Origin: an uncultured virus (IMG/VR IMGVR_UViG_3300028844_005252)
Lineage: Duplodnaviria; Heunggongvirae; Uroviricota; Caudoviricetes
Strand: one strand, 5' to 3'
IMG/VR virus record: IMGVR_UViG_3300028844_005252
DNA: 64,000 bases
Each line of letters starts with the position of its first letter. Positions within the stretch are counted from its first letter, which is position 1. Positions 7,575 to 39,400 of the stretch are shown in pieces. The notes under the pieces were generated by a model. That model was given only the letters and a program-made list of their open reading frames with translations. It searched no databases and was not told where the DNA came from. Made by a program: the position numbers and the translations under genes.

Positions 7575-7607
7575 TATAGTGAAATTGCGTGACCCTCTTT
7601 TGAACTT

Positions 7608-8163: not shown

Positions 8164-8563
8164 ATTTCTCATACTGGCCTTTTGAGTGTCTTTTGTGTGG
8201 GTACACATGAACAATAGATGCGGTTATTTTTTTAACAGGTACTATGTACCAAGCGTCTTTTTCGGCTATGAATATTACTAAATAATTAACATTAGTGTCT
8301 CGAAGATGTACGCGATCACCCATACAAGTTCCTTTTACTTGGTAGCGGATAGACTCTTCAGCCAACCCGTGTTCTAATTTACTACCGGTTCTAACTTGAA
8401 CGATAATAGGCTTTCCGGTTTTTTTATTAAAAATAACAATATCAAAACAAGCGGGATCGCCCCACGGGACGCAAGGACATAAACCTCTATTGTAGGCTTC
8501 AAAACAAAATCGTAATTCTCCCGCCGTACCTCGCTCGGAATTTATTCCCGTTTTATAATCCAC
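8105..8563 (-). CDS. PD-(D/E)XK endonuclease (PDDEXK_5-like)
   Basis: GTAGE...PWGD...FDIV...IVQVR pattern. Confidence 0.7.
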   Translation of the reverse strand: MDYKTGINSERGTAGELRFCFEAYNRGLCPCVPWGDPACFDIVIFNKKTGKPIIVQVRTGSKLEHGLAEESIRYQVKGTCMGDRVHLRDTNVNYLVIFIAEKDAWYIVPVKKITASIVHVYPHKRHSKGQYEKFRDRWNYFGFSSGDQVLLN

Positions 8564-17285: not shown

Positions 17286-17458
17286 TGTTGAAACTCCTCT
17301 AAATCTATTTTGTCGTCTTTAGCTATCTTGTGCATCTTCCTCCTCAACTTCCGTATCGCCACCTCCTCGATCTGACGGATACGCTCACGGCTAACACCCA
17401 CAAACTCTGCTATCTCCTGCAATGTGTGAGGATTTCCCGGCTCAGCCTCCATTACCAT
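17282..17458 (-). CDS. Stand-alone sigma70 region 4 domain protein (start uncertain; frame open to 17716)
   Basis: HTLQEIAEFVGVSRERIRQIEEVAIRKLR is canonical RpoD region 4.2. Confidence 0.75.
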   Translation of the reverse strand: MVMEAEPGNPHTLQEIAEFVGVSRERIRQIEEVAIRKLRRKMHKIAKDDKIDLEEFQH

Positions 17459-17474
17459 CTGCCTAAGTTTAAGA

Positions 17475-17732
17475 TCAACTAATGTGAGCTTCTTGGCGGA
17501 CTTCTGATTCGAGTGTATGTTGATCGATTCCGAGGGCTTTTTCGAAGACTTCGGTCTTTTTTCTAAGCGTTCGGTTTTCGATGATGAGATTGTGGATGAA
17601 GTCGCCCTCGATTTCGCGGGTCGTGAACCGATGGCCGCAAGTAGAACAGCTACGGCGTCTTCTCCAGCTATCCCCAGGTCCTTGACGAGAGTCTTTGACG
17701 GATGTTCTTTTTTCACACTTAGGACACTTCAT
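17475..17732 (-). CDS. NrdR-like N-terminal zinc ribbon protein (no ATP cone)
   Basis: MKCPKC...VKDSR...RRRRSCSTCGHRFTTRE. Confidence 0.8.
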   Translation of the reverse strand: MKCPKCEKRTSVKDSRQGPGDSWRRRRSCSTCGHRFTTREIEGDFIHNLIIENRTLRKKTEVFEKALGIDQHTLESEVRQEAHIS

Positions 17733-20243: not shown

Positions 20244-20392
20244 TTAAAGCGGGTATGTCTTACATCCGTAATACAAAGTGTAGCACATCCGTAACACAAA
20301 TCAAAAAGAAATTATAATGTATAACATAATAATACTTTACAAGTACGAGTAAGCGCGCAATACCTATTTGTATAACTTGTGGAAACGCCCTC

Positions 20393-20446
20393 AAGTTCCG
20401 TTAATGGATCGTTTGTGGCGGTAGGTGGTGGTTCTCCTTCCCCGTT
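20393..20446 (+). promoter_or_regulatory. Early-region motif GTTCCG-N3-ATGGATCG-N-TTGTG plus G-rich hairpin, copy 1
   Basis: 19 bp identical to 28365-28383; third copy at 29032. Each precedes a predicted transcription unit. Confidence 0.65.
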
Positions 20447-23838: not shown

Positions 23839-24505
23839 AAAGTTCTTTCACTCGCTAAGCGACGACCCCGACAAACTATTAGATTACTACAACGATTGGA
23901 ATAACAAAATCAAACCTCAATCAGAACAAGGTAGGCTAAATAGATGGCGATTCGCATTCTGCACAGTGCACACACCTTGGTTGTATAGCTGCTTACAATA
24001 TCAAGACATTGAAAACATGCACGAGTGGACTGATTACGACTCACTCGAAACAAACCTATCAAAGTCATCAGGCGGTATGTATAAAATCAAAGCCGAAGGT
24101 ATAGACAACCTTCACAAACTTTGGTCACAATCCGAACTGTTCGATCTGCAAGCACTATCATCTAGATCCGATTGGCGTAAACAACGAAACAAACTAACTA
24201 AAAAACTAAATAAACTTGGCCTAGCAAAAACTAGCTTCGCAATAGAAATGCTCGAGCCAATTAACTGTCAAGTCATCTGTATAGATCGCCACATGTTCAA
24301 AGCATTTGGATGGGAAAATGTAGACGACTCATCAACACACAAACAATACGAGTATTTTGAAGACTATTGGTTAGACCTATCCGAAGAATACAAAGTACCA
24401 CCCGCTATCTCAAGAAATCTATTTTGGGATATCATTCAAGAAAAACCAAACTCCATGTATTGGGGCAAATACCTAAAAGAATATGTATATACCACACGCA
24501 ATTGA
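23726..24505 (+). CDS. Second HhH-GPD glycosylase-like protein (start uncertain)
   Basis: RWRFAFCTVHTPW, LGLAKTSFAIEM...CIDRHM...YE...W. Confidence 0.7.
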   Translation: MDAKKQDPKQVKPSQTSKKHTIGRGIIQVPRHCKKRIEKFFHSLSDDPDKLLDYYNDWNNKIKPQSEQGRLNRWRFAFCTVHTPWLYSCLQYQDIENMHEWTDYDSLETNLSKSSGGMYKIKAEGIDNLHKLWSQSELFDLQALSSRSDWRKQRNKLTKKLNKLGLAKTSFAIEMLEPINCQVICIDRHMFKAFGWENVDDSSTHKQYEYFEDYWLDLSEEYKVPPAISRNLFWDIIQEKPNSMYWGKYLKEYVYTTRN

Positions 24506-25460
24506 CGAACATAATATAACCGTAGTTGTCGACAATGAAACTCACATCATTCCTCGATCAGCTCTTAACTATAACGCCATCAAAGATGCTTTAAACTCAG
24601 GTGATCACTCATCTATTTCTAGCTTACTTGATACAAAAGCAGCACTCGAAACACAAACCGAAGGTAAAGTATCATGCAACGGTGACTCAGTAACTTACAA
24701 TGGTCAAGTCATTGAAAACTCAGCAACTCAAAAACTACTTAACTTAGTAGCAGACGGTTACTCAGATATGACACCATGGCTTAAGTTCATTGATAAACTT
24801 ATGCGCAACCCATCATTCTCCAGTAGAGAACAAGCGTATAAATTCCTTGAACACAAAGGTATGCCATTAACAGCAGATGGTAATGTACTAGGTTACAAAG
24901 GTGTACGCGAAGACTACAAAGATAAATGGTCAGGTAAATTCAGTAACCATGTTGGTGCAGAACTATCAATGGAAAGAACTCAAGTTGATGACAACATCAA
25001 CCACGGTTGTTCAGCAGGATTTCATGTAGGCTCACATGAATATGCAGACAGTTGGGCATCATCAAATGGTAAGCTCATGCTTGTCGAGTTCTCACCTGAA
25101 GACATCGTAAGTGTACCACATGACTGTCAATACGCTAAACTTCGTGTATGCAGATACCGTGTAGTATCCGAATGTTTTGACCGTAAAATTCTTGATGACT
25201 CAGGCGTATACGGAAATCAAACAAATGAAAACACAGCAGAGATTGTGCGTGAAGTAATAAGCACATGTAATCTAGGCGGTTCATTCAAAGATCTCCAACG
25301 CAAATACCCAAGCAAAACCGTCAATCAATTCATTGATGCTTTCGAAGCTGAAAATATGAATGCACCAAAATTCATATACGACAGCGATCTCAATGACCTA
25401 AGAATATTCTTAGATGAAGGAGAACCCTTAGAAGAAGAGTACGAATACCTCTACAACTAA
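24483..25460 (+). CDS. rIIB-like protein
   Basis: NPS...YKFL...TADG...YKGV, MERTQVDD...CSAGFHVG, PEDIVSVP...KLRVCRY. Confidence 0.85.
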   Translation: MYIPHAIDEHNITVVVDNETHIIPRSALNYNAIKDALNSGDHSSISSLLDTKAALETQTEGKVSCNGDSVTYNGQVIENSATQKLLNLVADGYSDMTPWLKFIDKLMRNPSFSSREQAYKFLEHKGMPLTADGNVLGYKGVREDYKDKWSGKFSNHVGAELSMERTQVDDNINHGCSAGFHVGSHEYADSWASSNGKLMLVEFSPEDIVSVPHDCQYAKLRVCRYRVVSECFDRKILDDSGVYGNQTNENTAEIVREVISTCNLGGSFKDLQRKYPSKTVNQFIDAFEAENMNAPKFIYDSDLNDLRIFLDEGEPLEEEYEYLYN

Positions 25461-25521: not shown

Positions 25522-27600
25522 ATGAAACTTGATACAGTAAATATAAACACCACTTCAACAATACCAGCAGAAGCAGACTTTGGCATGAACAAAGAAGACA
25601 TGCCTCACATAACTAATCTTCTGCGTAAACAAATCTATTCAGATAAACTTCTAGCAATACTTCGTGAGTATTCAACTAATGCTTATGATGCACATGCAGA
25701 CAAAGGTATCACACAAGTACCGATCGAAATCACACTACCAACTCTAACCGATCAAAACTTAAAAATCAGAGACTTCGGTGACGGCTTAACCGAAGAAGAG
25801 ATCATGAGTATCTACATCAAATACGGTGCATCTACAAAGCGTAACTCAAACGCAGTAACAGGTTGTTTAGGTATTGGTTGTAAATCTGCATTCGCATACT
25901 CAACTCAATTCAAAATAACATCATACAAAGACCATCAATGTAATACATTCTTAGCACGCATTGATGAAAATAATATCGGTACTATATCCAAAGTCTCCAA
26001 TAAAACCTCAGACCAATCAAACGGTGTAGAAGTATCAATACCAATCAATGCTAGCGACCATACAGAACTAACTAACAACACACATATAGAAAAAGTAACT
26101 TACCACAAACAAACAGACGATTGGGGTATTGTAGATACAAATAAAACAGTAACCGAATTATTCAACTATTCAGCAACCGTATTCATGGGTAATATTCCTT
26201 ATCCCGTTAATCTCTCAACGCTTGCTATAAATGATGACTCAATTAAATCCGTACTATCATGCAAATCACTAGTTATCTTTGCACCACTAGGTTCATTAGA
26301 TATATCAGCATCTCGTGAAGCATTAGAATATACAAACAAAACTAAGAACGCACTCACTGCTATTGCTAAAAATTGTCTATCCGACCTATGTTTAAATATT
26401 AATAAAGCAGTCAATGCAGAAACAACAGCAATCAAAGCAGCACATGTAGCACAAAAATTAAAAAGCGAACTTAGTTATGAAATAAGTAGAATCGTATCAC
26501 ATGGATTAACTTGGAAAGGAAACAAACTCCTATACCAAATACAATTCCCAACAGATATACCGTTCCACTTCAGAAAACACAGATGGAGAGCAGATGATCA
26601 TGTCAACAGTAAAGAAGATTCAAAATACGCAGCCATAACAGAAAACTCTTACTTCTGTGTGTACAGTGATGACTTAAGTCAAGTAACAAGAAGAATCAGA
26701 TCCGTGCAAGCTAAAAACGGTTGGAATAACGGACATAAGTACTATGCAATACCAACGCATCTAATGTCATCATGCTCACCTCCATTAATGAGTAATGATG
26801 TAATCGATCTTGATGAAATAGAACCAATGAAAGCAAACCGATCAACAGTAAGTGCAGACGGTAGTTCTAAAAAAACAGTTAAGATCTCAGTATGTGAAAT
26901 TAAACATAACACAATGAAATCAGGTAGAGTATCAGATAATGTAGAACCATTAGCTGATGAAAATGGTAACTTCATATATGTACCATTAGACAGATACGAT
27001 TGGATTGGAGGAGGCACTAATGTCGAAGATCCGTTAGCAAGAATAGGTTCAATTAAAAAAGCTATTCAAATACTAAATAAGATAATAAAAAATCAAATGT
27101 CATGCCCAATCATACATGGTGTAAAAAAACATTATCTTAATAAAATAAAAGATAACACAAATTGGGTTACTTTAGATGTGTATCTCAAAGCCTTGTTCAA
27201 ACAAGCAGAGAAAAAAACACCTAAACTATTCAAAGCATCAGACTTATGTATGTCAGATTCTAGTTATCTATTACCAGAGTCCAGGTCACTAATGAGTGCA
27301 TATGAAAACTCTAATTCTAAAGTGTTAAGACAAATAGCATACGCTCACAATCACGACAGCGGTAGCTTCCAAGAAGAACAAAATACAATCGTCGATATAG
27401 ATTGGACTGAAAGCATGTTAAAAAATGTAAACTATGTAACAGAAATATTCACATGGTTAGGCTATAAAAAAGAGTCAAAAGCTCTTGCAATTATAGAAGA
27501 AAAACTAATCAAAAAATATCCACTATTACGATTCCTATCTAGCTCATACCACAACACTGCCGACCTAACTCAAGCGTTAAACAAATACATCAAATCCTAA
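25522..27600 (+). CDS. rIIA-like protein (GHKL/HSP90-like ATPase N-terminus)
   Basis: IYSDK...REYSTNAYDAH, IRDFGDGL, YGASTK, GCLGIGCKSAFAY, SASREALEY. Confidence 0.85.
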   Translation: MKLDTVNINTTSTIPAEADFGMNKEDMPHITNLLRKQIYSDKLLAILREYSTNAYDAHADKGITQVPIEITLPTLTDQNLKIRDFGDGLTEEEIMSIYIKYGASTKRNSNAVTGCLGIGCKSAFAYSTQFKITSYKDHQCNTFLARIDENNIGTISKVSNKTSDQSNGVEVSIPINASDHTELTNNTHIEKVTYHKQTDDWGIVDTNKTVTELFNYSATVFMGNIPYPVNLSTLAINDDSIKSVLSCKSLVIFAPLGSLDISASREALEYTNKTKNALTAIAKNCLSDLCLNINKAVNAETTAIKAAHVAQKLKSELSYEISRIVSHGLTWKGNKLLYQIQFPTDIPFHFRKHRWRADDHVNSKEDSKYAAITENSYFCVYSDDLSQVTRRIRSVQAKNGWNNGHKYYAIPTHLMSSCSPPLMSNDVIDLDEIEPMKANRSTVSADGSSKKTVKISVCEIKHNTMKSGRVSDNVEPLADENGNFIYVPLDRYDWIGGGTNVEDPLARIGSIKKAIQILNKIIKNQMSCPIIHGVKKHYLNKIKDNTNWVTLDVYLKALFKQAEKKTPKLFKASDLCMSDSSYLLPESRSLMSAYENSNSKVLRQIAYAHNHDSGSFQEEQNTIVDIDWTESMLKNVNYVTEIFTWLGYKKESKALAIIEEKLIKKYPLLRFLSSSYHNTADLTQALNKYIKS

Positions 27601-27601
27601 T

Positions 27602-27934
27602 ATGATTCCTGCAAAGCAACTACCACTACCTGTAGTATTCCTAAACAACAAAACATTGAATAAACACATTGTTGAAGGTAACGGATACGAAGTAATACCA
27701 GCATCAACGCAAAAAGGTAAACTACCTGAAAATACCATAGCAGTATGGAAAGATTCCTATAATACAACCACTAGATTCGTACAAGATCGCTACAGATATG
27801 TAGAGTTTCAAAAACCTAGCGGATACGACCAAATCTATATATCCGGAACAATAGCAGATATAGACAATATGAATGCGTTCATGGATACATACAACCAACT
27901 GCATCGATACATAAATAACATATACATTAAGTAA
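27602..27934 (+). CDS. Hypothetical protein
   Basis: Starts 1 nt after the rIIA-like stop; same codon bias. Confidence 0.55.
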   Translation: MIPAKQLPLPVVFLNNKTLNKHIVEGNGYEVIPASTQKGKLPENTIAVWKDSYNTTTRFVQDRYRYVEFQKPSGYDQIYISGTIADIDNMNAFMDTYNQLHRYINNIYIK

Positions 27935-27940
27935 CAGGGT

Positions 27941-27971
27941 AGAGCCTGAGCACGCTCTTTAAAAACTGCTC
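27941..27971 (+). ncRNA. H-type pseudoknot motif, copy 2
   Basis: S1 AGAGC/GCTCT, L1 CT, S2 GAGCA/TGCTC, L3 TTAAAAAC. Confidence 0.7.
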
Positions 27972-28038
27972 ACCCCTTTGGCTAGCAACTATCATCATGT
28001 CACGAGTTCTCGTGGCGTAACCACTCGCACTCTCAATT

Positions 28039-28365
28039 ATGAATAAATCCACACTCAAAATCACATTACCACAATCAATAACTGACGACTTCCGTAAACT
28101 CTATGTAAAACCTAGCACCAAACACGGTTATAACTTCACCGAAATAGGTATAGACACATCAGATATCACATGGGCCTCAGACAGAATATACATAATACAA
28201 GATTTACTAACTCAATTGCTCAGTATTTCAAAAGATAAAAAAACAGTTGAAGCACAACTAACAGCAATCAACACAATATTACAATCCATGCTCAGTAATA
28301 TGGAATCACACGATAATTACAAAACGCTTCATGAAACAGAATTTACAGCAACACCTCAGCCATAA
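28039..28365 (+). CDS. Hypothetical protein
   Basis: 108-aa ORF with early-region codon bias. Confidence 0.55.
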   Translation: MNKSTLKITLPQSITDDFRKLYVKPSTKHGYNFTEIGIDTSDITWASDRIYIIQDLLTQLLSISKDKKTVEAQLTAINTILQSMLSNMESHDNYKTLHETEFTATPQP

Positions 28366-28426
28366 AGTTCCGTTAATGGATCGGTTGTGAGGGGGGAGAG
28401 GAATTTTCTTTTTCCTTCGCTCCCTC
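28365..28426 (+). promoter_or_regulatory. Early-region motif copy 2 plus hairpin
   Basis: AAGTTCCGTTAATGGATCGGTTGTGAGG followed by a purine/pyrimidine hairpin. Confidence 0.65.
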
Positions 28427-28460
28427 GTTTCAATTTTATGCCGACTGATCATTGGCATAA

Positions 28461-28819
28461 GGGGAAGCATGTAGCTTAGCCGTACAGAGGGCTAACATGC
28501 ACAAATTGTTCTAACTCTTAGCAGAGTATCTCGAGTTCAAATGAACAGGAAAGATTTCAGACATGAATAGAATAGGTTTCGGATGATCAAGAGAAATTGC
28601 AGAGAGTATGCCTGTCCAATAACTGATGAGTTGGATGATGATGCAAAGTAGACAACCTAGTGGAAGAAGCTTTGTAAATCGTATCGTAGCTGATACCTCT
28701 CGTACTTCAGTATGGCAAAAACCATAATTGAACTTATGCGTTTATCTTCTCACTCGCAAGAGTGTCGCATAGAATATCTTGAACATATCGGATGCAGGTA
28801 TCCAATCCTGTCCCCATCA
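28461..28819 (+). ncRNA. Large structured ncRNA with tmRNA-like landmarks
   Basis: No ORF of 60 aa or more. Ends pair (GGGG/CCCC). At least 10 hand-found helices, including GNRA-capped CACTC-GCAA-GAGTG and TTCA-GACA-TGAA. Bounded by the repeated motif and a terminator-like hairpin. Confidence 0.65.
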
Positions 28820-28840
28820 ATTTCTTCACTCATAATAGTG

Positions 28841-28880
28841 ATCCCGTCATCATCTTAACAGGTGGTGGCGGGATTTCTCT
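28841..28880 (+). terminator. Terminator-like hairpin after the ncRNA
   Basis: ATCCCGTCATCATC/GGTGGTGGCGGGAT, whose G-U pairs work only on the + strand; weak U tract. Confidence 0.6.
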
Positions 28881-29031
28881 ATGGCATGGCTAGCTACTAT
28901 CATTATGTCACTAGCGTTTAATAGCAGGGTGATGTCCTAACCAGACTACATCCTTAAATCTCTACATCACTATTAAAGTGTCCCCTTCGGGAGGTTTTAA
29001 ATTGTTACTCAGGTGACCACCTGTCGGTGGT

Positions 29032-29084
29032 GTTCCGAGCATGGATCGATTGTGAGGAGGGAGGGGAATTCTTCTTCTCCACTC
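29032..29084 (+). promoter_or_regulatory. Early-region motif copy 3 plus hairpin
   Basis: GTTCCGAGCATGGATCGATTGTGAGG... Confidence 0.65.
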
Positions 29085-29116
29085 ATTTATTAATCCCGTA
29101 TCAGGAGACAAATACC

Positions 29117-29479
29117 ATGCCATTACCAACACTACAACAAAACCTTCCCGAAGGAAACCATACCCTTACCTTAAAGAATAGCTCATTAGAGCAAAGTGGA
29201 AGAGGAGAACGATTAGTGCTCTATTGGGAGAAAGCAGGAGCCAAGACTGTTACTCAGTCATGGATACCTACCGATAATATGAAAAGGCTTATGGAGGAAT
29301 CCATAGTGAAGCTCGATCTAGGAGAGCTTTATCCTGCCAAGCCTGCCAAGTCCATAGAAGGCTTATTCGGTCAAGTCCATAACCTTGTCCAAGCATACCG
29401 TGAAAAGGGTGCTGATGACATAAAGCGTAAAGTGAAAATCATCACGAACTCGAGAGGCTATCCCGAGTTCAAAATCTAA
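29117..29479 (+). CDS. Hypothetical protein (possible OB-fold/DUF669-like)
   Basis: CAGGAG Shine-Dalgarno before ATG 29117; LPEGNH...NSRGY pattern. Confidence 0.55.
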   Translation: MPLPTLQQNLPEGNHTLTLKNSSLEQSGRGERLVLYWEKAGAKTVTQSWIPTDNMKRLMEESIVKLDLGELYPAKPAKSIEGLFGQVHNLVQAYREKGADDIKRKVKIITNSRGYPEFKI

Positions 29480-29500
29480 TCATACGAACATAAACCTTAA

Positions 29501-29530
29501 GCACCTGAGTATGTGCGATAACAACTGCTC
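29501..29530 (+). ncRNA. H-type pseudoknot motif, copy 3
   Basis: S1 GCAC/GTGC, L1 CT, S2 GAGTA/TGCTC (U-G wobble), L3 GATAACAAC. Confidence 0.7.
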
Positions 29531-29540
29531 ACCTACTATC

Positions 29541-29926
29541 ATGAGTAAAATCTTAAATTCCGTAGGCATACAAGATGCCGAACAAGTAAAAAGAATAATC
29601 AAAAGAGAAAGTCAGCCAAAAGTAGATTTCTCTAGGTTGCCAAGCAGTTTGGAAAAATGCCTTGCCGAACCCGATAAGCGTCCAAATACTTATCGTCTCT
29701 GCAAATCATTNNNNNNNNNNNNNNNNNNNNNNNNNNNNNNNNNNNNNNNNNNNNNNCTGCAAATGATGTGCTAGGCAGAAAGCCTCACGCTGACATCAGT
29801 AGTGTCAGTGCAAGGTGTTATCGATCTCTTCAGCAAGATATGCTAGGAGCACGCCTGCCTGCCGTAAATATCGAAGCCAAAGTGCATGACGCTTTAGGAT
29901 ACGGTATTCCTAACCTTAACCTTTAA
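29541..29926 (+). CDS. Hypothetical protein spanning the N gap (29711-29756)
   Basis: MSKILN... before the gap; an open frame ANDVLGRK...NLNL* after it ends just before a terminator. Confidence 0.45.
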
Positions 29927-29932
29927 CTCCTC

Positions 29933-29975
29933 AGCCTCATCTTCGTACTATCATGTATGGAGGTGAGGTTTTTTT
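29933..29975 (+). terminator. Rho-independent terminator ending the early region
   Basis: GCCTCATCTTCGTAC-TATCAT-GTATGGAGGTGAGGT followed by a T run. Confidence 0.85.
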
Positions 29976-30576
29976 GTGTGGTATTTAATCGAGTTGCTTC
30001 GCAATTGTTAGCGTCTTCAACAAACTTGTAAAAGTTTGATACCGACGGGATCTTTATCCATTATCTTAGCGTCTCAAATAGGAACTTTGAGCCACTAAGA
30101 ACCTCCCCACTAAGCAAAAGCCTTTTTGAATAAGTCTTGGGGTTATAGGGGGTAAGCGACGACTCGAGCCACATGCGGAGTGTGAGTCTGCACCACATCA
30201 TGACGCAAGTCGTTGATGATCAGGCACAACATTGACATTGACATTAATGTTGACCCTGACTTGACCTTCATCAGTCCTGATCTGACCCAAGACACCACCC
30301 CTATCCCCCGAGGTACCAACACTATCATCAGCCTCGATATTGAGTATATATAGTATAAGGTAGTAGGTAACCTTTGGAAAAGAAATAGGATTCAACAAAA
30401 TGCATGTTATACCAGGCATATACCCGGCAAACCTAAAGTAATACTTCAAATTTAAAGTACTACTTTAAAAATGCACGATATAACATGCATAGATATGTGT
30501 TTGATATACAACCGATAGACCCCCCTATGGGTATGGGGTACCTTAAAACTGAATTAAATGTAATTAGGGAACCCAT

Positions 30577-30975
30577 ATGGCAAAAAAACCTAGCAGAAAA
30601 TATATGCAAGAAGACATCCACCGGTTTATGGAGGAGGATGACTTCGCAAGTGCAGCCAATGTTTTAAGAACTGGCATGAAAGCCACCCATACCGTCCGCC
30701 GGAACCGTGAAGGCGGCGAAAGAGGGGTAGAATACGAAGAAGTTGCCGACCACAGCACTAGATTAGCAGCCGCCCGACTCACATTGGAGTACGGATTTGG
30801 GAAACCAGCCACCAGACACGACATTACAATGACCAAAGAGACAACAACCACCGTAACACCGGCCGAAGTTATGCTCAGATTGAAGGAATCCGGTCAAGAT
30901 TTGGCCGAAATCATCGATGTTTACTCTGAAGCAGTAAAAGAAGCCCCAATAGAGATCGAAAATGAACGCGAATAG
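30577..30975 (+). CDS. Putative terminase small subunit
   Basis: DHSTRLAAARLTLEYGFGKP motif; first gene of the late operon, upstream of TerL. Confidence 0.55.
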   Translation: MAKKPSRKYMQEDIHRFMEEDDFASAANVLRTGMKATHTVRRNREGGERGVEYEEVADHSTRLAAARLTLEYGFGKPATRHDITMTKETTTTVTPAEVMLRLKESGQDLAEIIDVYSEAVKEAPIEIENERE

Positions 30976-32432: not shown

Positions 32433-32694
32433 GAGAAAACCAAGTAAGCCCATACGGAAGACGACCAAGGGCAAAGGAGCTAATTACCGCACCGCAAAAG
32501 CTGGTGCCGGTATGACGAAGAAGGGCGTAGCAGCTTATCGAAAAGCTAACCCCGGATCTAAGCTCAAGACCGCGGTCACGGGTAAAGTTAAAAAAGGAAG
32601 TAAAGCGGCTAAGCGTCGTAAAGCATTTTGTGCGAGATCTAAGAGTTGGAATGGGGAAAGAGGTAAAGCAGCTCGTCGTCGTTGGAAGTGCTGA
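32422..32694 (+). CDS. Basic phage protein (DUF6321-like)
   Basis: GMTKKGVAAYRKANPGSKLK...RRKAFCARS...RWKC. Confidence 0.75.
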   Translation: MASKRKPSKPIRKTTKGKGANYRTAKAGAGMTKKGVAAYRKANPGSKLKTAVTGKVKKGSKAAKRRKAFCARSKSWNGERGKAARRRWKC

Positions 32695-34451
32695 TGACCG
32701 AAAAAGAGAACCAAATTCAGGACTTAATCCGCATCGATCCAGAGGTGTGGTTTTCTACATTTGCGGTCATTAAGGACAAAAGGGGTAAAGATATTAAACC
32801 TAAAGCGAATACGCTACAAAAGCGTATGTTCGCTCATTATAGAAAGTGTCAGCTTGAGCAAAAACCATGCAAAATGATCATACTGAAACCACGTCAGAAG
32901 GGAGCATCAACGTGTGCTCAAGCGCTGACTTATCATCACATGAGGAAGCACGAGAATCTGGCGGGCTCTCTAATGGGGGACATAGCGGGAACCTCGGACA
33001 AGGTTTTCGAGATTTATCGAAGATATGCGGAAAACGACGCGTTCCCTTGGAACGATACAGGAACAAACCTCGAGGACGGTGGAAGTCTCGCCGACGCGAT
33101 CAAGCTAGTCAGCAAAAGCGTTTACGGCAAAGAGACCGCAGGATCCAAAAATGCAGGTCGAAGCGGAACTATCCAGGTCGGTAACATGACTGAGGTAGCT
33201 TTTTGGCCAAACACAGGTCAAAAAGACCCAGCTCTCGGATATCTACAGTCGCTGTACGACGGCGATAATGTTTCTTTGGTTGTCGCAGACTCAACTCCTA
33301 ATGGTCCAGCCGGTTGGTTCTATAACACATGGGTGCAAGACAACGAATGGGCGAAGATATTTGCGGCATGGTGGGAATTCGAAGATTCCGAGATTCCTTT
33401 CAAATCTAAAGACGAGCTTCAGGATTTCAAGGATACTATGACCGATGATGAGAAGTCAGAAGTCGAGCGTTTCGATGTAACATGGGAACAAATGCATTGG
33501 AGAAGAAGGACTCTTCAAGACAAATGCAACGGTGATGTTTCTAAGTTCCGCCAGGAGTACCCATCTGATCCCGAAGAGTGTTTCTTAATGTCATCCCGAC
33601 CCCGCTTTCAAATGGAGGTATTAAAGGAAATGACGGATGCGGCGGAAAAACAACATTTTAGAACCGGAAATCTGTCCCTACAAGATAACAAGACAGTTTC
33701 ATTCAATTTGGATAGGGCGGGTTCATGGAATATTTACGATGAGCCGGAGCATGATTCTAAGTATATAATTGGAGTAGACACATGCACGGGTGAGGATCAG
33801 CAAATGCAAGGTCTTGCGGCTGATCCCGACTATCATTCCGTTCAGGTTTGGAAAGCTCCTTATGAAGATTGGAACGGGGATTGGCATATTGCTCGTATGG
33901 TAGCCGTGCATCATTCCCGTGTGGATATCGGAGTACTAGCCGAAGAGATTCAAGCCGCAGCCGCATGGTATGGGGGTGCTTTTGTGGTACCCGAAGTTAA
34001 CAATAGTGGTCTGGCTATAATCAAATATCTGCTGGAAGCGGGTGTACATGTCTATCAAAGGCGTAAAGTAAACAATTCGACCGGTATGGTTGAAAAGTTC
34101 TATGGTTGGCAGACGGATAAAATCACCCGAAAGACGGTTATTGACCATATGGCATCCGAATTGATGGATAGGAATTTCGATATTCCCGATAAGGACATAC
34201 TTCAGGAAATGAAAGTATTCGTTATTAACGATAAGGGTAAACCCGAAGCCGCTCCTGGTCACCATGACGACCATGTATTAGCCGCAGCTCTTTGTTTATA
34301 CAACATGGAATCGGCTTCGACATTCAAAGGAGCAAAGAAAAATAAAATTACAACTCGAATGCTTCGTAAAAATCCGAGTCTAATGTGTCCCGATGGTTTT
34401 ATGAGGGTTCCTTTAGGGGCTATTAAACAGAATTACAAGCGGTTGAGGTAG
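32694..34451 (+). CDS. terL: Terminase large subunit
   Basis: ILKPRQKGAST, MTEVAFW, DSTPNG, FRQEYP, IIGVD, VPEVNN, HDDHV. Confidence 0.92.
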   Translation: MTEKENQIQDLIRIDPEVWFSTFAVIKDKRGKDIKPKANTLQKRMFAHYRKCQLEQKPCKMIILKPRQKGASTCAQALTYHHMRKHENLAGSLMGDIAGTSDKVFEIYRRYAENDAFPWNDTGTNLEDGGSLADAIKLVSKSVYGKETAGSKNAGRSGTIQVGNMTEVAFWPNTGQKDPALGYLQSLYDGDNVSLVVADSTPNGPAGWFYNTWVQDNEWAKIFAAWWEFEDSEIPFKSKDELQDFKDTMTDDEKSEVERFDVTWEQMHWRRRTLQDKCNGDVSKFRQEYPSDPEECFLMSSRPRFQMEVLKEMTDAAEKQHFRTGNLSLQDNKTVSFNLDRAGSWNIYDEPEHDSKYIIGVDTCTGEDQQMQGLAADPDYHSVQVWKAPYEDWNGDWHIARMVAVHHSRVDIGVLAEEIQAAAAWYGGAFVVPEVNNSGLAIIKYLLEAGVHVYQRRKVNNSTGMVEKFYGWQTDKITRKTVIDHMASELMDRNFDIPDKDILQEMKVFVINDKGKPEAAPGHHDDHVLAAALCLYNMESASTFKGAKKNKITTRMLRKNPSLMCPDGFMRVPLGAIKQNYKRLR

Positions 34452-36411: not shown

Positions 36412-39400
36412 ATGGGAGCTCTCGATGATCTAGATCTCGGTAAGGACCAATACCAAACCGAGAAAGAACAGGACGATTTAGGTTTTAAGAATTACCAAAG
36501 ACCTCTTCGCCCTCAACCCTTGCATGGCGAAATTCAGCCTTATGAGGATCCCGTCCAGCAAGAGCTTCCTCAACAACAGAGGCAGGCTTATAAGGATATA
36601 AAAACATTTAAAAACGACCTAGATACTCTTAATGACGGTATTAAACGGTACAAAAGTATATCCGAAACAAAAGAGCAGGCTTTAAATGATTTTTACTCAA
36701 CTAAGTTTAGCCCGTATTTCGACGAAAGCTATGCCGACGATTTTAATGTAGTAAGTGGTGAGCAGTTCGATAGCAAAAATTTCTCTACCACAAAGTTTGA
36801 TCAAGTAGACAAAGCATTTGACGCAATTGGCCGTGATTATACAGACATCGAAGCTAGGGTAGCCGAAGGTGATACTAAATGGTTTGGTGACGACACAGCT
36901 TTTCTTAGAGCACAGCAAAAACTCAAAGGTAAGAAGAGGTTTGAATTAATAAAAGCAAAACATGACCGTATGCGTAAAGATTACGACCATGCTTTTAAAG
37001 CCCACGAAAATTCCGTAGCTCGAAAGAAAGGCATGTCCGACGCATTTACAAGTTTGCCCCTTGGTATGCGAGAAGCTGCAAAAGCCTGGAAGGAAGAAAA
37101 TCCAGGGAAGAACCTTTCCGCCGATTCAATTAATAAACTTTTAGACTCCACTAAATTCGAGGATCCTAAATATTCCCCAATGGGTCTACTTTTAAACCAG
37201 GACAAGGTTGATCCCCGAACTAACTTGGTTATGCACAAAGGTAACCGGGAAGAGGAACAGCATCAAAAGCTCCAAGGTCGCAGGTTGGCGGCTGTAAAGA
37301 AAGAAGGTAAAGCCGGACTTGCAAGGGATATAAAAACTTTTGACCAGGAGACAAAGTTACGCGATCGGGGTTTAATGTACTCCACCTTAGGCCGGTTAGC
37401 TAATCATTCAATTTATCTTAGCAAGGCAGAGAAAGAGGCTTTGCACATAGATAAATTAAAGAAAGACGGCTTTATTCAATATAAAGGTGTAGATATAGCC
37501 AGTGCACAAGAAGCTCTTGGTGGGGAAGATCGTGTAATTGCAGCTAAAGCTATCGAGAATTTTGGTGAGGCTTTTACCAGCTTACAAGACGCCGAAGTAA
37601 ATTACACTAAAAACAAGGGATCAAAAGGTATATCTAAAGCCAAAGAGATACGCGATCTTGCTCAACTTAATTACGATGAAGCTGTAAAGTCCGTAACTCA
37701 ACTTGGGTTTTCAAAAGAGCTTTTAAAAAGGGGTCGCTCTAAGAGTTATTTTGGGCATCTCCGGGATTCTGCTACAAGAGGTAGTCTTTTGGATGACGCT
37801 TCGGAATACGCTTTTGCATTGGACGGCTGGCAGGAATTTGGAACGGATAAAGCTTCCGAATTAATTTCTATAATGGAGCAAATGGAATCTCTCGAAGGTT
37901 CTCATGCTTTTAAAAAATTCGGTATGGCAGAATCCGAAGGGCTGCTTGAAGCCTTCGGAAACCTATTTAGTAACTTTGAAGCGATACCCGAACTTATCAC
38001 TGAAACCATCGTAGGTTTTGGTAGTTCATATTTTGATGCCGAAAGATTAGGGGCTACAGTAGGTGTGGGGGCCGGTACAGGTTTAGCCGTAGGATCGGCT
38101 GGGTTCAATCCGCTTACAGCCGGTGGAGGAGCTGCAACAGGTGCTTTATGGGGTGCAAGAATAAATGCGGGGCTTGCTTCATTTGTAATGGAGTATGTCG
38201 GAGAATTTCTCGGAGAATTAGATAAAGAAGGCGTAGATTGGCGTAATCCAAATGTATTAGTCGCGGCAGTTAACAATCCCGCATTAATGGATAAGGTCAG
38301 AGAAAAAGCTAGGACTAAATCAGGCACTGTTGCGTTTTTCGATTTAGTAGCCGCCGGTATAGCTGGCAGAACAGCTAGGTTGGTTAAAAAACCGTCCGCT
38401 ATGAAAAAACTGCCTAAAGGTATTAAAGCTTTTAGACAAGAGTTAGACGGGGCGGCTCATGCAAGTTGGTTTAGAAATTTAGCCGCTGGAGGTGCTGAGC
38501 TTGCCGTTCAGGGATCTCTCGGGGGTATGGGTGAGGGCTTTGGTCAATTACTTACTTTAGACCCAGGTGAAGAGATTGACTGGGATGCTATAGCAGCCGA
38601 AATCGGAATCGAAATGGTTGGCCCAGGTGGTATCGGTTTAGGTATTAATTCAATATCTGCAAAAAGCCGTGGAATGTTCGGCGATTTCGGAATGGAGGAC
38701 ATTAGTGGCGCAAGTGAGACCGTACTTAATCAAGGTAATACTGAGACTGAATACGGCCGTTTAGAACAAGTCGATAGGGCTGGGTGGAAACATGAAAGAA
38801 GGCGGTTTAATACTTCCGAAGGTTTCATGCAAGCCTTGCAGGAGGTAGAGGGTTTTGATCCAAACTCAGCCAGTGGTTGGTTAATATCCCGTATTGCCGG
38901 TTTTGCGTACGGCATGGAAAAAAGAAACCTCGGTTTGGTTATTTCAGATAGAACTCCTTTTAGAAATTCAAAAACTAGAGGCGCATATCAAGACGGTGTC
39001 GTTTATATAAATACGAAAGCATTAAAAGACGGAGCTTCAACTAACTTAGTTTTACTACACGAGCTTGGCCACTTCATGCAGGATATGTTTTTCTCCGATC
39101 CCGCAAGTGTCGAGAATTTATACAATAGCCATCACGCCGGTAATGATGAAGTTCAAACCGCGGAAAACAAACTACTATCATGGGCTCAATATATTTTAGG
39201 TAAAAGGGTTACCGATCTATCTGAACTCTCCCCTAGTGAGTTGAAGATGGCTAAAGACAAATTTCAAAATACTCCCGATAATGTTATTAGGGCGGAGTGG
39301 TTTACTACACAGTTCGGATTAGCTCTCGCACAGGAATCAGGGATTGCATCGAGTGACAAACTTTCAAAAGAAATAAAGGTAGCCACTAAGAATTTCCTTA

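What the first reader, a model, noticed from the sequence alone, without database searches (positions are those of the whole stretch)
28437..28880. ~360-nt structured RNA with tmRNA landmarks but an atypical acceptor end and an acidic tag (DELDDDAK)
Seen: an ORF-free stretch between a repeated promoter-like motif and a terminator-like hairpin folds almost completely. Helices include GGGG/CCCC ends, GCATG-TTAGCC/GGCTAA-CATGC, a 4-way junction closed by TGTTCTA/TAGAATA, ATGATCAAGA/TCTTGAACAT, TGCAAAGT/GCTTTGTA, TATGG/CCATA, TATGCG/CGCATA and CACTC-GCAA-GAGTG. Landmarks occur in tmRNA order: 5' GGGG; GGTTTCG; a P2-like long-range helix; ATAACT followed by GAT GAG TTG GAT GAT GAT GCA AAG TAG (28625-28651); GCATAGAA; CGGAT plus a T-arm-like GCAGG-TATCCAAT-CCTGT; CCCCATCA. 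Known: tmRNA needs a 7-bp acceptor stem with G3-U for alanylation, and its tags usually end in Ala; acidic-ended tags resist ClpXP. Here the stem is 4 bp without G-U and ~110 nt is inserted before GGTTTCG. Inference: a tmRNA-derived decoy (SmpB/ribosome sponge), a rescue RNA adding a non-degrading tag, or a new class of large phage ncRNA.
Basis: partly seen in the sequence, partly recalled or inferred. Interest (0 to 1): 0.85.

Follow-up and report, generated by a model that had tools for sequence, protein, structure and literature searches.

The report
New folded RNA gene, marine phage
This stretch of an uncultured marine phage is a real, separately expressed gene for a roughly 400-base, intricately folded non-coding RNA that matches no catalogued RNA family; its resemblance to the ribosome-rescue RNA (tmRNA) does not hold up, and its job is still unknown.

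Summary
Window 28436-28816 (+ strand) is a densely folded RNA. Fold z-scores on the + strand are -4.1 to -4.8 in three variants. I found five distinct variants in two phage lineages that are only 47-50% identical. They keep about 20 helices through many compensatory changes. In the close clade 137 pairs are 99.8% paired and 16 changed on both sides (0 of 500 shuffles).

Contigs of 346-430 nt from four RNA-library runs (four studies) cover only the RNA, not its flanks. There are no Rfam hits and no ARAGORN hits in the window.

The tmRNA reading fails:
- There is no G3-U pair in any variant.
- The hairpin loop has 8 nt, not the 7 of a T-loop.
- GGTTTCG and CGGAT are the two strands of helix P2 and are replaced in the distant lineage.
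- The DELDDDAK frame and its stop are not conserved.

The RNA is an accessory gene: only 2 of 22 related viral records have it.

The window copy lacks 35 nt that every other copy has. TATGCG/CGCATA is therefore a window-only pairing.

Unexplained features are 7-8-nt direct repeats bracketing the unit, with a different sequence in each lineage, and invariant palindromic loops (UGAUCA, GUAC).

Best reading: a new family of stable, trans-acting phage RNA. Its function is only inferred.

The parts
28367..28392 (+). Phage promoter-like motif GTTCCGTTAATGGATCGGTTGTG(AGG), one of three copies in the window (the others are near 20404 and 29041)
   Evidence: 3 matches on the + strand against 0.20 expected, and 0 of 100 shuffles reach 3. 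The same motif lies upstream of the RNA in L092/L096 with a different spacer. Its role as a promoter is inferred, not shown.
28389..28426 (+). Purine-rich/pyrimidine-rich hairpin directly after the promoter-like motif. It is probably the 5' stem-loop of the primary transcript.
   Evidence: Read from the sequence. Analogous hairpins follow the motif copies at 20404 and 29041. The sequence differs in L092, so it is not part of the conserved RNA.
28430..28436 (+). 5' copy of the direct repeat TCAATTT that brackets the conserved unit
   Evidence: The repeat is ATCAATTT in L092 and TTCCAAA in L033. Random 16-nt against 20-nt windows share 7 nt or more in 0.96% of trials.
28436..28460 (+). H0: 5' hairpin whose loop holds the invariant palindrome UGAUCA
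   Evidence: The stem covaries: UUAUGCCGA/UUGGCAUAA, against UUAUACUGAU/AUCAGUGUAA, against GGGAU/AUCCU (helix 1). The loop UGAUCA is kept in all 5 variants. The X15 RNA contig includes it.
28461..28464 (+). P1 5' strand (GGGG), pairing with CCCC 28812-28815. This stem closes the whole fold.
   Evidence: In L033 it is 7 bp, GGAACAG/CUGUUCC. No variant has a G-U pair here.
28467..28500 (+). H1: hairpin with an internal loop and the invariant 8-nt loop GUACAGAG (GUACAGAA in L001)
   Evidence: compensatory changes AU to UA and UA to CG between the lineages.
28506..28575 (+). Four-way junction domain with three hairpins (loops UAGC/UCGC, AAAU, GACA), followed by the conserved GG at 28575-28576
   Evidence: helices 5-8. 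The inner stem reads GUUC/GAAC, ACUC/GAGU or CCUC/GAGG in the different variants.
28578..28592 (+). P2 5' strand (UUCGG-AUG-UCAAGA), pairing with 28777-28792.
   Evidence: L033 has AAUCAGAAAAUA/UGUUUUCUGAUU at the same place.
28598..28772 (+). Central domain (P3-P7): P3 is UGC with GCA, P4 is GAGAG/CUCUC enclosing three hairpins, then P5, P6 and P7 (GCAA tetraloop). In this window it is damaged by a 35-nt deletion between 28737 and 28738.
   Evidence: All four RNA-run contigs carry the 35 extra letters at 28737/28738 (tables 5 and 5c).
28625..28651 (+). It is made of the 3' strand of helix P4a and the 5' strand of P4b.
   Evidence: The stop is not kept (TGT in L001/L094; CGT in L092/L096 and in an X18 RNA variant). 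There are 1-4-nt indels just upstream and no counterpart in L033.
28777..28792 (+). P2 3' strand (UCUUGA-A-CAU-A-UCGGA).
   Evidence: helix 9: 14 pairs, 100% of cells paired.
28794..28811 (+). 3' hairpin ('T-arm-like'): GCAGG-UAUCCAAU-CCUGU, stacked directly on P1
   Evidence: The stem covaries: G-U to G-C in L001, and GUGG/CCAC in L033. The loop always has 8 nt: UAUCCAAU, UAUACAUU, or UCAUCAAU in an RNA-run variant.
28812..28826 (+). P1 3' strand CCCC (28812-28815), then A28816, then the conserved tail with the 3' copy of TCAATTT (28817-28823). Similarity between relatives stops by about 28830, 5-10 nt beyond this tail.
   Evidence: RNA-run contigs end at 28816 (X15) and at about 28812-28814 (X18, X19, counting the loose letters). 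The tail CAAUUUCUU is complementary over 9 nt to GAGAAAUUG 28591-28599 (read from the sequence, positions). This pairing is not evident in L033.
28840..28882 (+). Terminator-like hairpin (16-bp stem with G-U pairs) followed by UUUCUCU
   Evidence: Each relative has a different hairpin here, and L092 has a classic one with T8. The simple terminator scan did not list the window's hairpin.

Best explanation
Window 28436-28816 (+ strand) is a stand-alone gene for a stable, highly structured non-coding RNA of a family that is not catalogued. The RNA is about 380 nt here and about 415-430 nt in every other copy.

Shown:
- The fold has about 20 helices. A 5' hairpin is followed by a closing stem P1. 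P1 encloses a hairpin, a four-way-junction domain, a long-range helix P2 with a multi-helix central domain, and a 3' hairpin stacked on P1.
- The fold is conserved through compensatory changes in two phage lineages.
- The RNA is present in environmental RNA libraries as contigs that cover it and nothing beside it.
- It is an accessory gene that sits in non-homologous neighbourhoods.

Inferred:
- It is transcribed from the phage-specific promoter-like motif at 28367-28392 towards the hairpin at 28840-28875.
- It is trimmed to an RNA that ends at or near CCCCA (28816).
- It acts in trans as a folded particle. The invariant loops (UGAUCA, GUACAGAG, AAAU, GACA, UNNNCANU) are displayed on a covarying scaffold to bind a partner. 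The partner is another copy of itself through the palindromic UGAUCA and GUAC loops, in the way ROOL, GOLLD and OLE RNAs assemble, and/or a host or phage macromolecule during takeover.

My odds:
- Real ncRNA gene of a new family: about 0.9.
- Acts in trans as a structural or binding RNA rather than in cis: about 0.6.
- Self-association through the palindromic loops: about 0.3.

The confidence figure of 0.55 is for the statement as a whole, including trans action.
For: Fold stability is strand-specific:
- Window: z -4.11 on the + strand, -0.46 on the - strand.
- L033: -4.51 and -1.78.
- L092: -4.81 and -3.06.

Homologues:
- nhmmer found the L001/L002 contig and L033 among 82 loci.
- A pattern scan of metagenome contigs gave 5 loci, and all 5 match the profile.
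- There are five distinct sequences. The close clade is 84-91% identical within itself, and L033 is 47-50% identical to it.

Covariation:
- In the close clade (A7, 3 sequences), 137 pairs in 22 helices have 99.8% of 410 cells paired.
- 16 of those pairs changed on both sides. 0 of 500 shuffles reach this, and partners slid by 1-3 columns give 0-1.
- With L033 added, the 5' domain has 41 pairs with 11 changed on both sides.
- The P5b-P7 stretch has 21 pairs with 6 changed on both sides.
- The helix lists of L033 and the close clade match in order, with different sequences in P1, P2, P4, P6, P7 and the 3' hairpin.

Expression: four RNA-library runs from four studies each hold contigs of 346-430 nt on 28422-28816. 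Depth is zero on 27600-28403 and on 28873-29600.

No conserved ORF: in L033 the longest stop-free stretch is 50 codons or fewer in all six frames, the indels are not multiples of three, and tblastn gives only short block matches.

No known family: Rfam gives 0 matches at gathering score in the 64 kb. At E up to 10 the only match touching the RNA on its own strand is a 13.4-bit one (BTnc231, E 6.9, gathering score 80.4), and it does not recur in two relatives.

Independent unit:
- The promoter-like motif occurs 3 times against 0.20 expected and is also upstream in L092.
- A different hairpin follows the RNA in each relative.
- The flanking ORFs are not homologous between the window and L033.

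Precedent for palindromic kissing loops that build RNA-only assemblies: passages read in PMC12286853.
Against: - The function is not shown by anything here.
- Only five distinct sequences, in two lineages, were found. The covariation statistics therefore rest on few events, and the tested structure was derived from the same sequences.
- Contigs cannot give the strand, true ends or level of an RNA.
- For L033 I found no promoter or terminator consensus, so a separate transcription unit is not shown there.
- The window's own copy lacks 35 nt. This removes the 3' strands of P5b and P5 and half of P6, so this particular copy may be impaired.
- The UGAUCA loop could equally be a protein site or an intramolecular partner: UGAUCA also occurs in the P2 5' strand of the close clade.
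- The R1 model found the RNA in only 2 of 22 related viral records, so it is dispensable for this phage group. The third match in that call, 11.2 bits at E 0.097, I take as noise.
Confidence: 0.55

Rival explanations
1. A tmRNA-derived RNA: either a decoy for SmpB or the ribosome, or a rescue RNA that adds a peptide tag. P1 plus the 3' hairpin would be the tRNA-like domain and P2 the P2 helix of tmRNA.
For: - The topology is tmRNA-like once the 110-nt insertion is ignored. The 5' strand of P1 is followed by a conserved GG, then P2, then an inner domain, then the 3' strand of P2, then a hairpin stacked directly on the 3' strand of P1.
- In L033 P1 has 7 bp and the hairpin stem 4 bp, close to the 12-bp acceptor/T stack of a tRNA.
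- RNA contigs stop at or near CCCCA.
- A different stop-free frame runs from the conserved AAGUUCUGU to the conserved GUC GCA UAR. It has 22 codons in the close clade and 24 in L033, and both end in Ser-Val-Ala-stop.
- Marine phages do carry tmRNA genes, often two-piece ones (PMC9004378, passages read).
Against: - ARAGORN finds nothing in the window.
- With -ps, ARAGORN finds nothing in 7 sequences. At -ps80 it reports a tmRNA in only 2 of the 7 (L001 and L094, which are identical). The acceptor stem it uses, GAUGGGG/CCCCAUC, is not present in the window, where the same place reads GAUGAGU. At -ps70 the calls are scattered and mostly disagree between homologues.
- The Rfam searches returned no tmRNA-family match, even at E up to 10.
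- No G-U at position 3 of P1 in any of 5 variants. G3-U70 as the AlaRS identity element is textbook knowledge, recalled.
- The loop has 8 nt. Only U1, C5, A6 and U8 are constant, so it has no UUCRA T-loop.
- GGUUUCG and CGGAU are helix strands that are replaced in L033.
- The DELDDDAK frame is not conserved.
- The alternative frame lies in helices P5b, P6 and P7, whose changes are compensatory at the RNA level. Keeping the frame and avoiding stops over about 24 codons by chance is roughly 1 in 10 (my estimate).
- There is no SmpB gene and no tRNA gene in the window.
Confidence: 0.05
2. A cis-acting leader (riboswitch-like or attenuator) that controls the genes downstream through the hairpin at 28840-28875.
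For: The RNA lies between a promoter-like motif and a terminator-like hairpin, upstream of + strand ORFs. Large leaders with terminators are the usual build of riboswitches (general knowledge).
Against: - The downstream genes differ in every lineage and are not homologous.
- The hairpin after the RNA has a different sequence in each relative, and similarity stops about 10-15 nt after P1.
- A second copy of the promoter-like motif (29041) serves the next ORF.
- The RNA-library contigs end at P1 and do not run on.
- No riboswitch family matches.
Confidence: 0.07
3. A mobile or cassette-like RNA gene: the unit was inserted, or is exchanged, as a block, and the 7-8-nt direct repeats are target-site duplications or recombination cores. 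This concerns how the gene came to be here. It is compatible with the best explanation of what the RNA does.
For: - Direct repeats bracket the unit in both lineages, with lineage-specific sequence: TCAATTT, ATCAATTT and TTCCAAA. Chance is about 1% per lineage.
- Distribution is patchy: 2 of 22 related records, and 1 of 4 that are at least 90% complete.
- The neighbourhoods are not homologous.
- Similarity between close relatives begins and ends at the repeats.
Against: - I found no empty site. The last scan found only the known contig.
- There are no terminal inverted repeats, and no transposase, integrase or reverse transcriptase lies beside it.
- In L033 the 3' copy overlaps four bases of P1, which is odd for a target duplication.
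- The repeats could instead be a shared processing signal, or strands that compete for the same partner: the tail can pair with 28591-28599.
Confidence: 0.2
4. A ribozyme, either self-processing or acting on another RNA. The conserved junctions and loops would form a catalytic core.
For: The size, the multi-junction architecture, the GNRA loops (GCAA, GAAA/GAGA) and the invariant unpaired stretches are typical of large ribozymes (general knowledge). The discrete ends in RNA contigs would fit self-processing.
Against: No match to any ribozyme family in Rfam. The unit does not interrupt a gene, and its ends do not fit group I or group II splice-site rules (sequence read; the rules are recalled). 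No cleavage evidence is available here.
Confidence: 0.08

Closest known systems
tmRNA (ssrA; the tmRNA families of Rfam, and ARAGORN's tmRNA model)
   Same: The length class is similar. The 5' and 3' ends pair in a closing stem, and a hairpin is stacked directly on its 3' strand. A long-range helix (P2) encloses an inner domain. Phage-encoded examples exist in marine phages (PMC9004378, passages read).
   Different: The Rfam and ARAGORN searches gave no tmRNA match. There is no G3-U70. The loop has 8 nt instead of the 7-nt T-loop. No pseudoknots are evident. About 110 nt (a hairpin plus a four-way junction) lie between P1 and P2. There is no conserved tag frame at the proposed site, and no SmpB gene nearby.
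ROOL and GOLLD RNAs (large ornate RNAs of phages and prophages; Kretsch et al. 2025, PMC12286853, passages read)
   Same: They are phage-borne, accessory, very highly structured RNAs of unknown function, present in environmental data. In those RNAs conserved palindromic loops make symmetric kissing contacts.
   Different: There is no sequence or model similarity (Rfam). This RNA is shorter, about 400-430 nt against about 580 and 800 (lengths partly recalled). It is not next to tRNA genes; the window has none. Oligomerisation is only a lead here.
Abundant early 'long non-coding RNAs' of Cellulophaga phage phi14:2, g004-g006 intergenic regions (Drobysheva et al., bioRxiv 10.1101/2020.03.07.982082, passages read)
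   Same: They are marine phage intergenic RNAs that are more abundant than most mRNAs, and their function is unknown.
   Different: I found no detectable relation. The 5'-domain model R1 with filters off gives only weak matches over phi14:2 1-9000. The best is 16.3 bits and lies inside the g002 gene, and inside the intergenic stretch 2905-4601 the matches are at most 3.9 bits (E 2.3 or worse). nhmmer gives nothing below E 0.5. Only the 5' domain was modelled.
phi29 pRNA (packaging RNA)
   Same: It is a phage-encoded structured RNA that works as a multimer through loop-loop pairing (recalled knowledge).
   Different: pRNA is about 174 nt, essential and universal in its phage group. This RNA is absent from most relatives, so it cannot be an essential packaging part.
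Phage T4 stable RNAs C and D (species 1 and 2)
   Same: They are phage-encoded stable RNAs of unknown function (recalled knowledge, not checked here).
   Different: They are much smaller and lie in the tRNA cluster. No similarity was tested.

Membership tests
tmRNA | Recognised by the family's covariance models (the tmRNA families of Rfam) or by ARAGORN | tested here: not met
   ARAGORN finds 0 genes in the window. Rfam gives 0 at gathering score, and none of the matches listed at E up to 10 is a tmRNA family, in the window and in two relatives. With -ps, ARAGORN finds 0 in 7 sequences. At -ps80 it hits only L001/L094, which are identical, using an acceptor stem that the window lacks.
tmRNA | 7-bp acceptor stem with G3-U70 (alanine identity) | tested here: not met
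   P1 is GGGG/CCCC in the close clade and GGAACAG/CUGUUCC in L033. There is no G-U at position 3 in any of 5 variants (helix 2).
tmRNA | T-arm with a 7-nt T-loop of tRNA type (U-U-C-R-A) | tested here: not met
   The loop has 8 nt: UAUCCAAU, UAUACAUU or UCAUCAAU. No register gives U..A with C-R between them in all three. The consensus itself is recalled.
tmRNA | Conserved open tag frame with a resume codon and a stop | tested here: not met
   For the frame at 28625-28651, the stop is lost in L001/L094 and L092/L096, there are indels upstream and there is no counterpart in L033. A second frame ending in S-V-A-stop keeps its phase in both lineages, but RNA helices explain it. I rate that one inconclusive.
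tmRNA | 3'-terminal CCA, encoded or added | tested here: inconclusive
   The genome reads CCCC-AUCA in the window and UUCC-AAAC in L033. One RNA contig ends at A28816. Contigs cannot show added letters.
tmRNA | Binding to SmpB and alanylation | not testable with these tools
   No SmpB domain among the 41 window ORFs scanned.
ROOL / GOLLD / OLE / raiA and other large RNAs in Rfam | Match to the family's covariance model | tested here: not met
   no match, even at E up to 10.
phi14:2-type phage lncRNA family (uncatalogued; lead from earlier notes of this scan) | Sequence or structure similarity to the phi14:2 g004-g006 intergenic RNAs | tested here: not met
   R1 with filters off and nhmmer --max over NC_021806 1-9000 give only noise in the intergenic stretch 2905-4601. 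The test is partial because it used the 5'-domain model and a DNA profile only.
Structured non-coding RNA gene (generic) | Helices kept by compensatory change; no conserved ORF; a transcript exists | tested here: met
   for covariation, for the lack of a conserved ORF, and for RNA-library contigs confined to the element in 4 runs of 4 studies.

The most novel reading that the evidence does not exclude
The unit is a self-contained, horizontally moving RNA-only cassette, marked by lineage-specific 7-8-nt flanking duplications. It encodes a new class of ornate phage RNA. The RNA is trimmed to a tRNA-like acceptor/hairpin end (CCCCA) and assembles into homo-oligomers through its invariant palindromic loops (UGAUCA, GUAC). 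It would be a third kind of phage RNA nano-assembly beside ROOL and GOLLD, and one that spreads as a mobile gene.
Probability: 0.15. Interest if true: 0.85.

Novelty: categorically new. Interest (0 to 1): 0.6.

Why it matters
Large, elaborately folded RNAs are rare, and nearly every one studied has turned out to be a machine (ribosome, RNase P, introns, tmRNA) or an unexpected self-assembling object (ROOL, GOLLD, OLE).

This RNA is about 400-430 nt long with about 20 covarying helices. RNA libraries from four separate marine studies contain it. It has a defined promoter-like element, a small set of invariant loops and clean boundaries. That makes it a tractable candidate for in-vitro transcription, probing and cryo-EM.

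Its accessory, cassette-like distribution in a variable region just downstream of rIIA in the close clade suggests a role in host takeover or counter-defence. That role is a guess.

The generic kind, an uncatalogued large phage RNA of unknown function, has precedents. This scan's own earlier notes list several others in marine phages. The family is new, but the phenomenon is becoming familiar. That tempers the surprise.

Tried and rejected
1. Search for the RNA in cultured phages: blastn 'distant' of the window RNA and of the L033 RNA against 50,697 phage records gave no match.

2. Searching the window's own assembly: it is not held. The nearest record, G001 (12 kb), has no match.

3. IMG/VR pattern scans:
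- Searches found only the two known contigs.
- One search found only the L001 contig (IMGVR_UViG_3300006990_000069).
- One search gave 3 extra loci and one search gave 4. All were chance matches, because neither R1 nor nhmmer confirms them.

4. Pattern scan of one genome per prokaryote species: 15 loci, mostly one Acinetobacter locus. None matches the RNA profile.

5. rIIA-based and terminase-based synteny:
- Among the 80 terminase loci, only L033 holds the RNA.
- Many close relatives' contigs begin at about 29900-30013, so they do not cover the locus.

6. Functional hints from neighbours: PHROGs and Pfam give nothing for the flanking small ORFs in any of the contexts.

7. Promoter and terminator consensus around the L033 copy: none found.

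8. Group I or II intron, RNase P, 6S, Y-RNA-like, omega/bridge RNA, retron RNA:
- No Rfam match.
- No partner gene (RT, TnpB/IscB, recombinase) beside the RNA.
- The unit does not interrupt an ORF.

9. attP fragment of a host tmRNA gene: rejected. The element has its own promoter-like motif, is 21 kb from the weak integrase-like ORF, and is conserved over its whole length.

10. Supplements of PMC10690425 (10,006 candidate viral structured RNAs): the contig numbers of my homologues do not occur in the 6 files that could be searched. Three files could not be searched. I therefore cannot say that this RNA is absent from that catalogue.

11. Earlier notes of this scan: none for this genome, and no look-alike by sequence.

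12. RNA-run cover of the flanks was zero. I use this only to say that the contigs do not extend, not as proof that the flanking genes are silent.
Full report
**What the window is**

The 64-kb window is most of the genome of an uncultured marine tailed phage.
- It has rIIB-like and rIIA genes (24483-25460 and 25522-27600) and a large terminase (32682-34451).
- It has a 4022-residue polyvalent protein (36412-48480; LPD38 and DprA-like matches) and an SU10-type portal (48492-50525).
- It has a family A DNA polymerase and helicases on the - strand.
- The terminase has 494 relatives at E 1e-10 or better. Some come from Tara material and sit on contigs of about 67-72 kb.
- No cultured phage is closer than about 27% terminase identity or 33% rIIA identity.
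- The window holds no tRNA or tmRNA gene by ARAGORN and no Rfam family at gathering score.

**The observation**

- The + strand of 28437-28880 folds at -133.8 kcal/mol against -110.1 +/- 5.8 for dinucleotide shuffles (z -4.11; 0 of 100 as good).
- The - strand gives z -0.46.
- No ORF longer than 48 codons overlaps the core on the + strand.
- The motif ATGGATCGRTTGTGAGG occurs three times in the window, allowing up to 3 mismatches (20404, 28376, 29041). All are on the + strand, against 0.20 expected.
- The three copies share a longer left part (GTTCCG..ATGGATCGNTTGTG), and each is followed by a purine-rich/pyrimidine-rich hairpin.

**Homologues**

- A 19-nt stretch found one IMG/VR contig (L001), which is 90% identical over the RNA.
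- A terminase alignment brought in 80 related loci. nhmmer with the RNA found only L001/L002 and, weakly, L033 (E 0.025).
- Reading L033 showed a 570-nt ORF-free stretch with the same RNA at 47-50% identity.
- A pattern built on the invariant loop and junction found five metagenome contigs, and all five match the profile.
- That gives five distinct sequences: the window; L093, which is the window plus 35 nt; L001/L094; L092/L096; and L033.
- Four further pattern scans of IMG/VR and one of prokaryote genomes added no member.
- A model of the 5' domain (R1) found the RNA in 2 of 22 whole related viral records, and in 1 of the 4 that are at least 90% complete. I count the third listed match (11.2 bits, E 0.097) as noise.
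- The RNA is therefore an accessory gene, rare in assembled contigs. Sampled words of the stretch do occur in 20 public runs of 17 studies.

**Structure**

The minimum-energy folds of four variants give the same order of helices:
- H0, a 5' hairpin.
- P1, the closing stem.
- H1, a hairpin with the 8-nt loop GUACAGAG.
- A four-way junction with three short hairpins.
- A conserved GG.
- P2, a long-range helix.
- P3 and P4, enclosing three hairpins.
- P5, with the invariant GAACUU/AAGUUC hairpin.
- P6, a two-part stem with a GNRA loop.
- P7.
- The 3' strands of P3 and P2.
- A 3' hairpin with an 8-nt loop.
- The 3' strand of P1.

Covariation in the close clade (L092, L001, L093):
- 137 predicted pairs in 22 helices are paired in 99.8% of 410 cells.
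- 16 pairs changed on both sides. 0 of 500 shuffles reach this, and sliding the partner by 1-3 columns gives 0-1.
- Caveat: there are only three sequences, and the structure was derived from them.

Covariation between the lineages:
- Most stems have different sequences but the same shape.
- P2 is UUCGG-AUG-UCAAGA/UCUUGA-CAU-UCGGA in one lineage and AAUCAGAAAAUA/UGUUUUCUGAUU in the other.
- P6 is AGAAG-AAGCGU/GCGUUU-CUUCU against ACAGG-AGCUCA/UGAGUU-CCUGU.
- The 3' hairpin is GCAGG/CCUGU against GUGG/CCAC.
- P1 is GGGG/CCCC against GGAACAG/CUGUUCC.
- On MAFFT alignments that include L033, 11 of 41 pairs in the 5' domain and 6 of 21 pairs in the P5b-P7 stretch changed on both sides. Those alignments have some register errors, which count against the structure.
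- L033 and L092 also fold better than shuffles on the + strand (z -4.51 and -4.81) than on the - strand (-1.78 and -3.06).

No reading frame is conserved. Indels are 1, 2, 4 and 35 nt, and L033 has no stop-free stretch above 50 codons in any frame.

**Expression**

- Six runs on record as RNA hold part of the stretch.
- I laid four of them, from four studies, on 27600-29600.
- Each holds contigs of 346-430 nt that lie on the RNA only: X15 on 28422-28816 (the whole 430-nt contig), X17 on 28460-28780, and X18 and X19 on 28478-28786 plus 26-28 further letters of a variant 3' hairpin.
- Depth is zero in every bin from 27600 to 28403 and from 28873 to 29600.
- DNA contamination would cover the flanks too, so these are RNA-derived.
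- Contigs cannot give the strand, exact ends or level. Three studies' contigs stopping within 28812-28816 is only a weak hint of a 3' end at P1.
- All four RNA contigs carry 35 letters between 28737 and 28738 that the window lacks, as do all the other DNA copies.
- The window copy is therefore a deletion variant. It has lost the 3' strands of P5b and P5 and the 5' half of P6.
- More divergent relatives exist in the RNA runs. One has the four-way-junction stretch replaced. Two contigs at depth 130-150 are alike only over 28610-28643.

**The gene as a unit**

- In the close clade the RNA follows rIIA and one or two ORFs of about 110 codons. The promoter-like motif lies 45-95 nt upstream.
- After the RNA each relative has a different hairpin, and L092 has a classic terminator with T8.
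- Similarity between relatives stops shortly after P1, by about 28830: L092 diverges after CCCCATCAATTTC and L001/L094 after CCCCATCAATTTCTTCA.
- In the L033 genome there is no rIIA within 14.7 kb upstream, and the flanking ORFs are unrelated to those of the window.
- None of the neighbours has a known function.
- For L033 I found no promoter or terminator consensus.

**The tmRNA question**

The defining features fail.
- ARAGORN at default finds nothing in the window. With -ps it finds nothing in 7 sequences.
- At -ps80 it calls a tmRNA only in L001/L094, which are identical. The acceptor stem it uses, GAUGGGG/CCCCAUC, is not present in the window, where the same place reads GAUGAGU. At -ps70 the calls are scattered and mostly disagree between homologues.
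- The Rfam searches list no tmRNA family, even at E up to 10, in the window and in two relatives.
- No variant has G-U at the third pair of P1.
- The hairpin loop has 8 nt (UAUCCAAU, UAUACAUU, UCAUCAAU) with no common T-loop register.
- GGUUUCG and CGGAU are the two strands of P2 and are replaced in L033.
- The DELDDDAK frame is built from the strands of helices P4a and P4b. Its stop is TGT or CGT in close relatives, indels of 1-4 nt lie just upstream, and L033 has nothing like it.
- The window has no SmpB gene.

One point does not fit neatly. A different stop-free frame runs from the conserved AAGUUCUGU to the conserved GUCGCAUAR in both lineages. It has 22 codons in one and 24 in the other, and both end in Ser-Val-Ala-stop. 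It lies in P5b, P6 and P7, whose changes are compensatory, and no start codon is kept. I read it as a by-product of RNA conservation. By my estimate chance gives about 1 in 10.

I put the tmRNA-derived readings at about 5%.

**What it most likely is and does**

Shown:
- It is a conserved, covarying, transcribed, non-coding and accessory unit.

Inferred:
- It is transcribed from the phage motif at 28367-28392 and trimmed to an RNA that ends near A28816.
- It acts in trans as a folded particle.

The invariant parts are loops and junctions on a variable scaffold:
- UGAUCA in H0.
- GUACAGAG in H1.
- CACAA after H1.
- AAAU and GACA in the junction domain.
- GG before P2.
- UGUCGCAUA at P3.
- U...CA.U in the 3' hairpin.

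Two of these are palindromes in hairpin loops (UGAUCA, GUAC). In OLE and GOLLD such palindromic loop cores, including GAUC, make symmetric intermolecular kissing contacts (PMC12286853, passages read). That makes self-association a testable lead, which I put at about 0.3. It is not a finding.

The gene's position in a variable block of small unknown ORFs, just downstream of rIIA in the close clade, and its patchy spread fit an accessory role in host takeover or counter-defence. That is a guess.

**Unexplained**

- Direct repeats of 7-8 nt bracket the unit in both lineages, and their sequence differs between lineages. They are TCAATTT at 28430-28436 and 28817-28823, ATCAATTT in L092, and TTCCAAA in L033. 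Chance is about 1% for each lineage.
- The repeats could be target duplications of a moving cassette, a shared processing signal, or competing strands.
- No empty site was found.
- The tail CAAUUUCUU (28818-28826) is complementary over nine bases to GAGAAAUUG (28591-28599). The same pairing is not evident in L033.

**Comparison and novelty**

The closest things in kind are the large ornate phage RNAs ROOL and GOLLD and the abundant intergenic RNAs of Cellulophaga phage phi14:2 (bioRxiv 10.1101/2020.03.07.982082, passages read).
- None is related by any test I could run.
- Earlier notes of this scan list several other uncatalogued large RNAs in marine phages. None resembles this one by sequence.
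- A catalogue of 10,006 candidate viral structured RNAs (PMC10690425; outline and abstract read) could be checked only in part. 6 supplementary files were searched without a hit to my contig numbers, and 3 were not searchable. Prior listing there cannot be excluded.
- None turned up this RNA.
- I rate the family as new at the level of RNA class. The general phenomenon has precedents.

**Verdict**

- The tmRNA interpretation is not supported.
- A new class of large phage ncRNA is supported.
- Interest is 0.6.

Noticed in passing
window 20390-20420, 28365-28392, 29030-29057: A phage-specific promoter-like motif (GTTCCG..ATGGATCGNTTGTG) occurs three times on the + strand. Each copy is followed by a purine-rich then pyrimidine-rich hairpin. 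The phage also encodes a 144-residue protein with a sigma-70 region 4 match (17282-17716, - strand) that might read it.
   Followed up: partly
window 28737/28738: The window's RNA copy lacks 35 nt that are present in every other DNA copy (six loci: L001, L092-L094, L096 and L033) and in contigs of four RNA-library runs. L093 is otherwise identical to the window. This is either a natural deletion variant or an assembly fault.
   Followed up: yes
window 28430-28436 and 28817-28823; L033 about 1380-1387 and 1801-1807: Lineage-specific 7-8-nt direct repeats bracket the RNA unit (TCAATTT, ATCAATTT, TTCCAAA). They may be target-site duplications or a processing signal.
   Followed up: partly
window 29711-29766 and 29855-30013: There is a run of 56 N. 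The contigs of several close relatives end or begin within about 150 nt of 29900 (L093's contig ends near 29855; L003, L004, L006 and L008 start at 29900-30013). This suggests a genome end, a repeat or a hypervariable point about 1 kb downstream of the RNA.
   Followed up: no
window 29930-30577: An ORF-poor stretch of about 650 nt begins with a strong terminator-like hairpin (29930-29975). It holds a 20-nt inverted repeat (30400-30419 with 30471-30490). It could be an origin, a packaging site or a regulatory region.
   Followed up: no
window 36412-48480: A 4022-residue protein has a DprA-like stretch (residues 1543-1704) and an LPD38 'large polyvalent protein' domain (3700-3905). I found no RNA polymerase match, so it is not shown to be an N4-type virion RNAP.
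   Followed up: no
window 2675-5830: A 1051-residue protein has an FGE-sulfatase (formylglycine-generating enzyme-like) domain at residues 720-950. This is unusual cargo for a phage.
   Followed up: no
RNA runs X18 and X19 on window 28610-28643: Contigs at depth 130-150 are alike only over 34 nt of the central domain and run on into unlike sequence. More divergent members of this RNA family therefore exist in marine RNA libraries and may be more abundant than the window's type.
   Followed up: no
window 28738-28772 (full in L093 1093-1195, - strand); L033 1688-1762: A stop-free frame runs from the conserved AAGUUCUGU to the conserved GUC GCA UAR and keeps its phase in both lineages (22 and 24 codons). 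In both it ends in Ser-Val-Ala-stop. No start codon is conserved. The window's deletion cuts the frame to 14 codons.
   Followed up: partly
window 6225-7442 (- strand): A weak phage-integrase match (24.5 bits, below Pfam's cut-off of 27.1) hints that the phage may be temperate.
   Followed up: no
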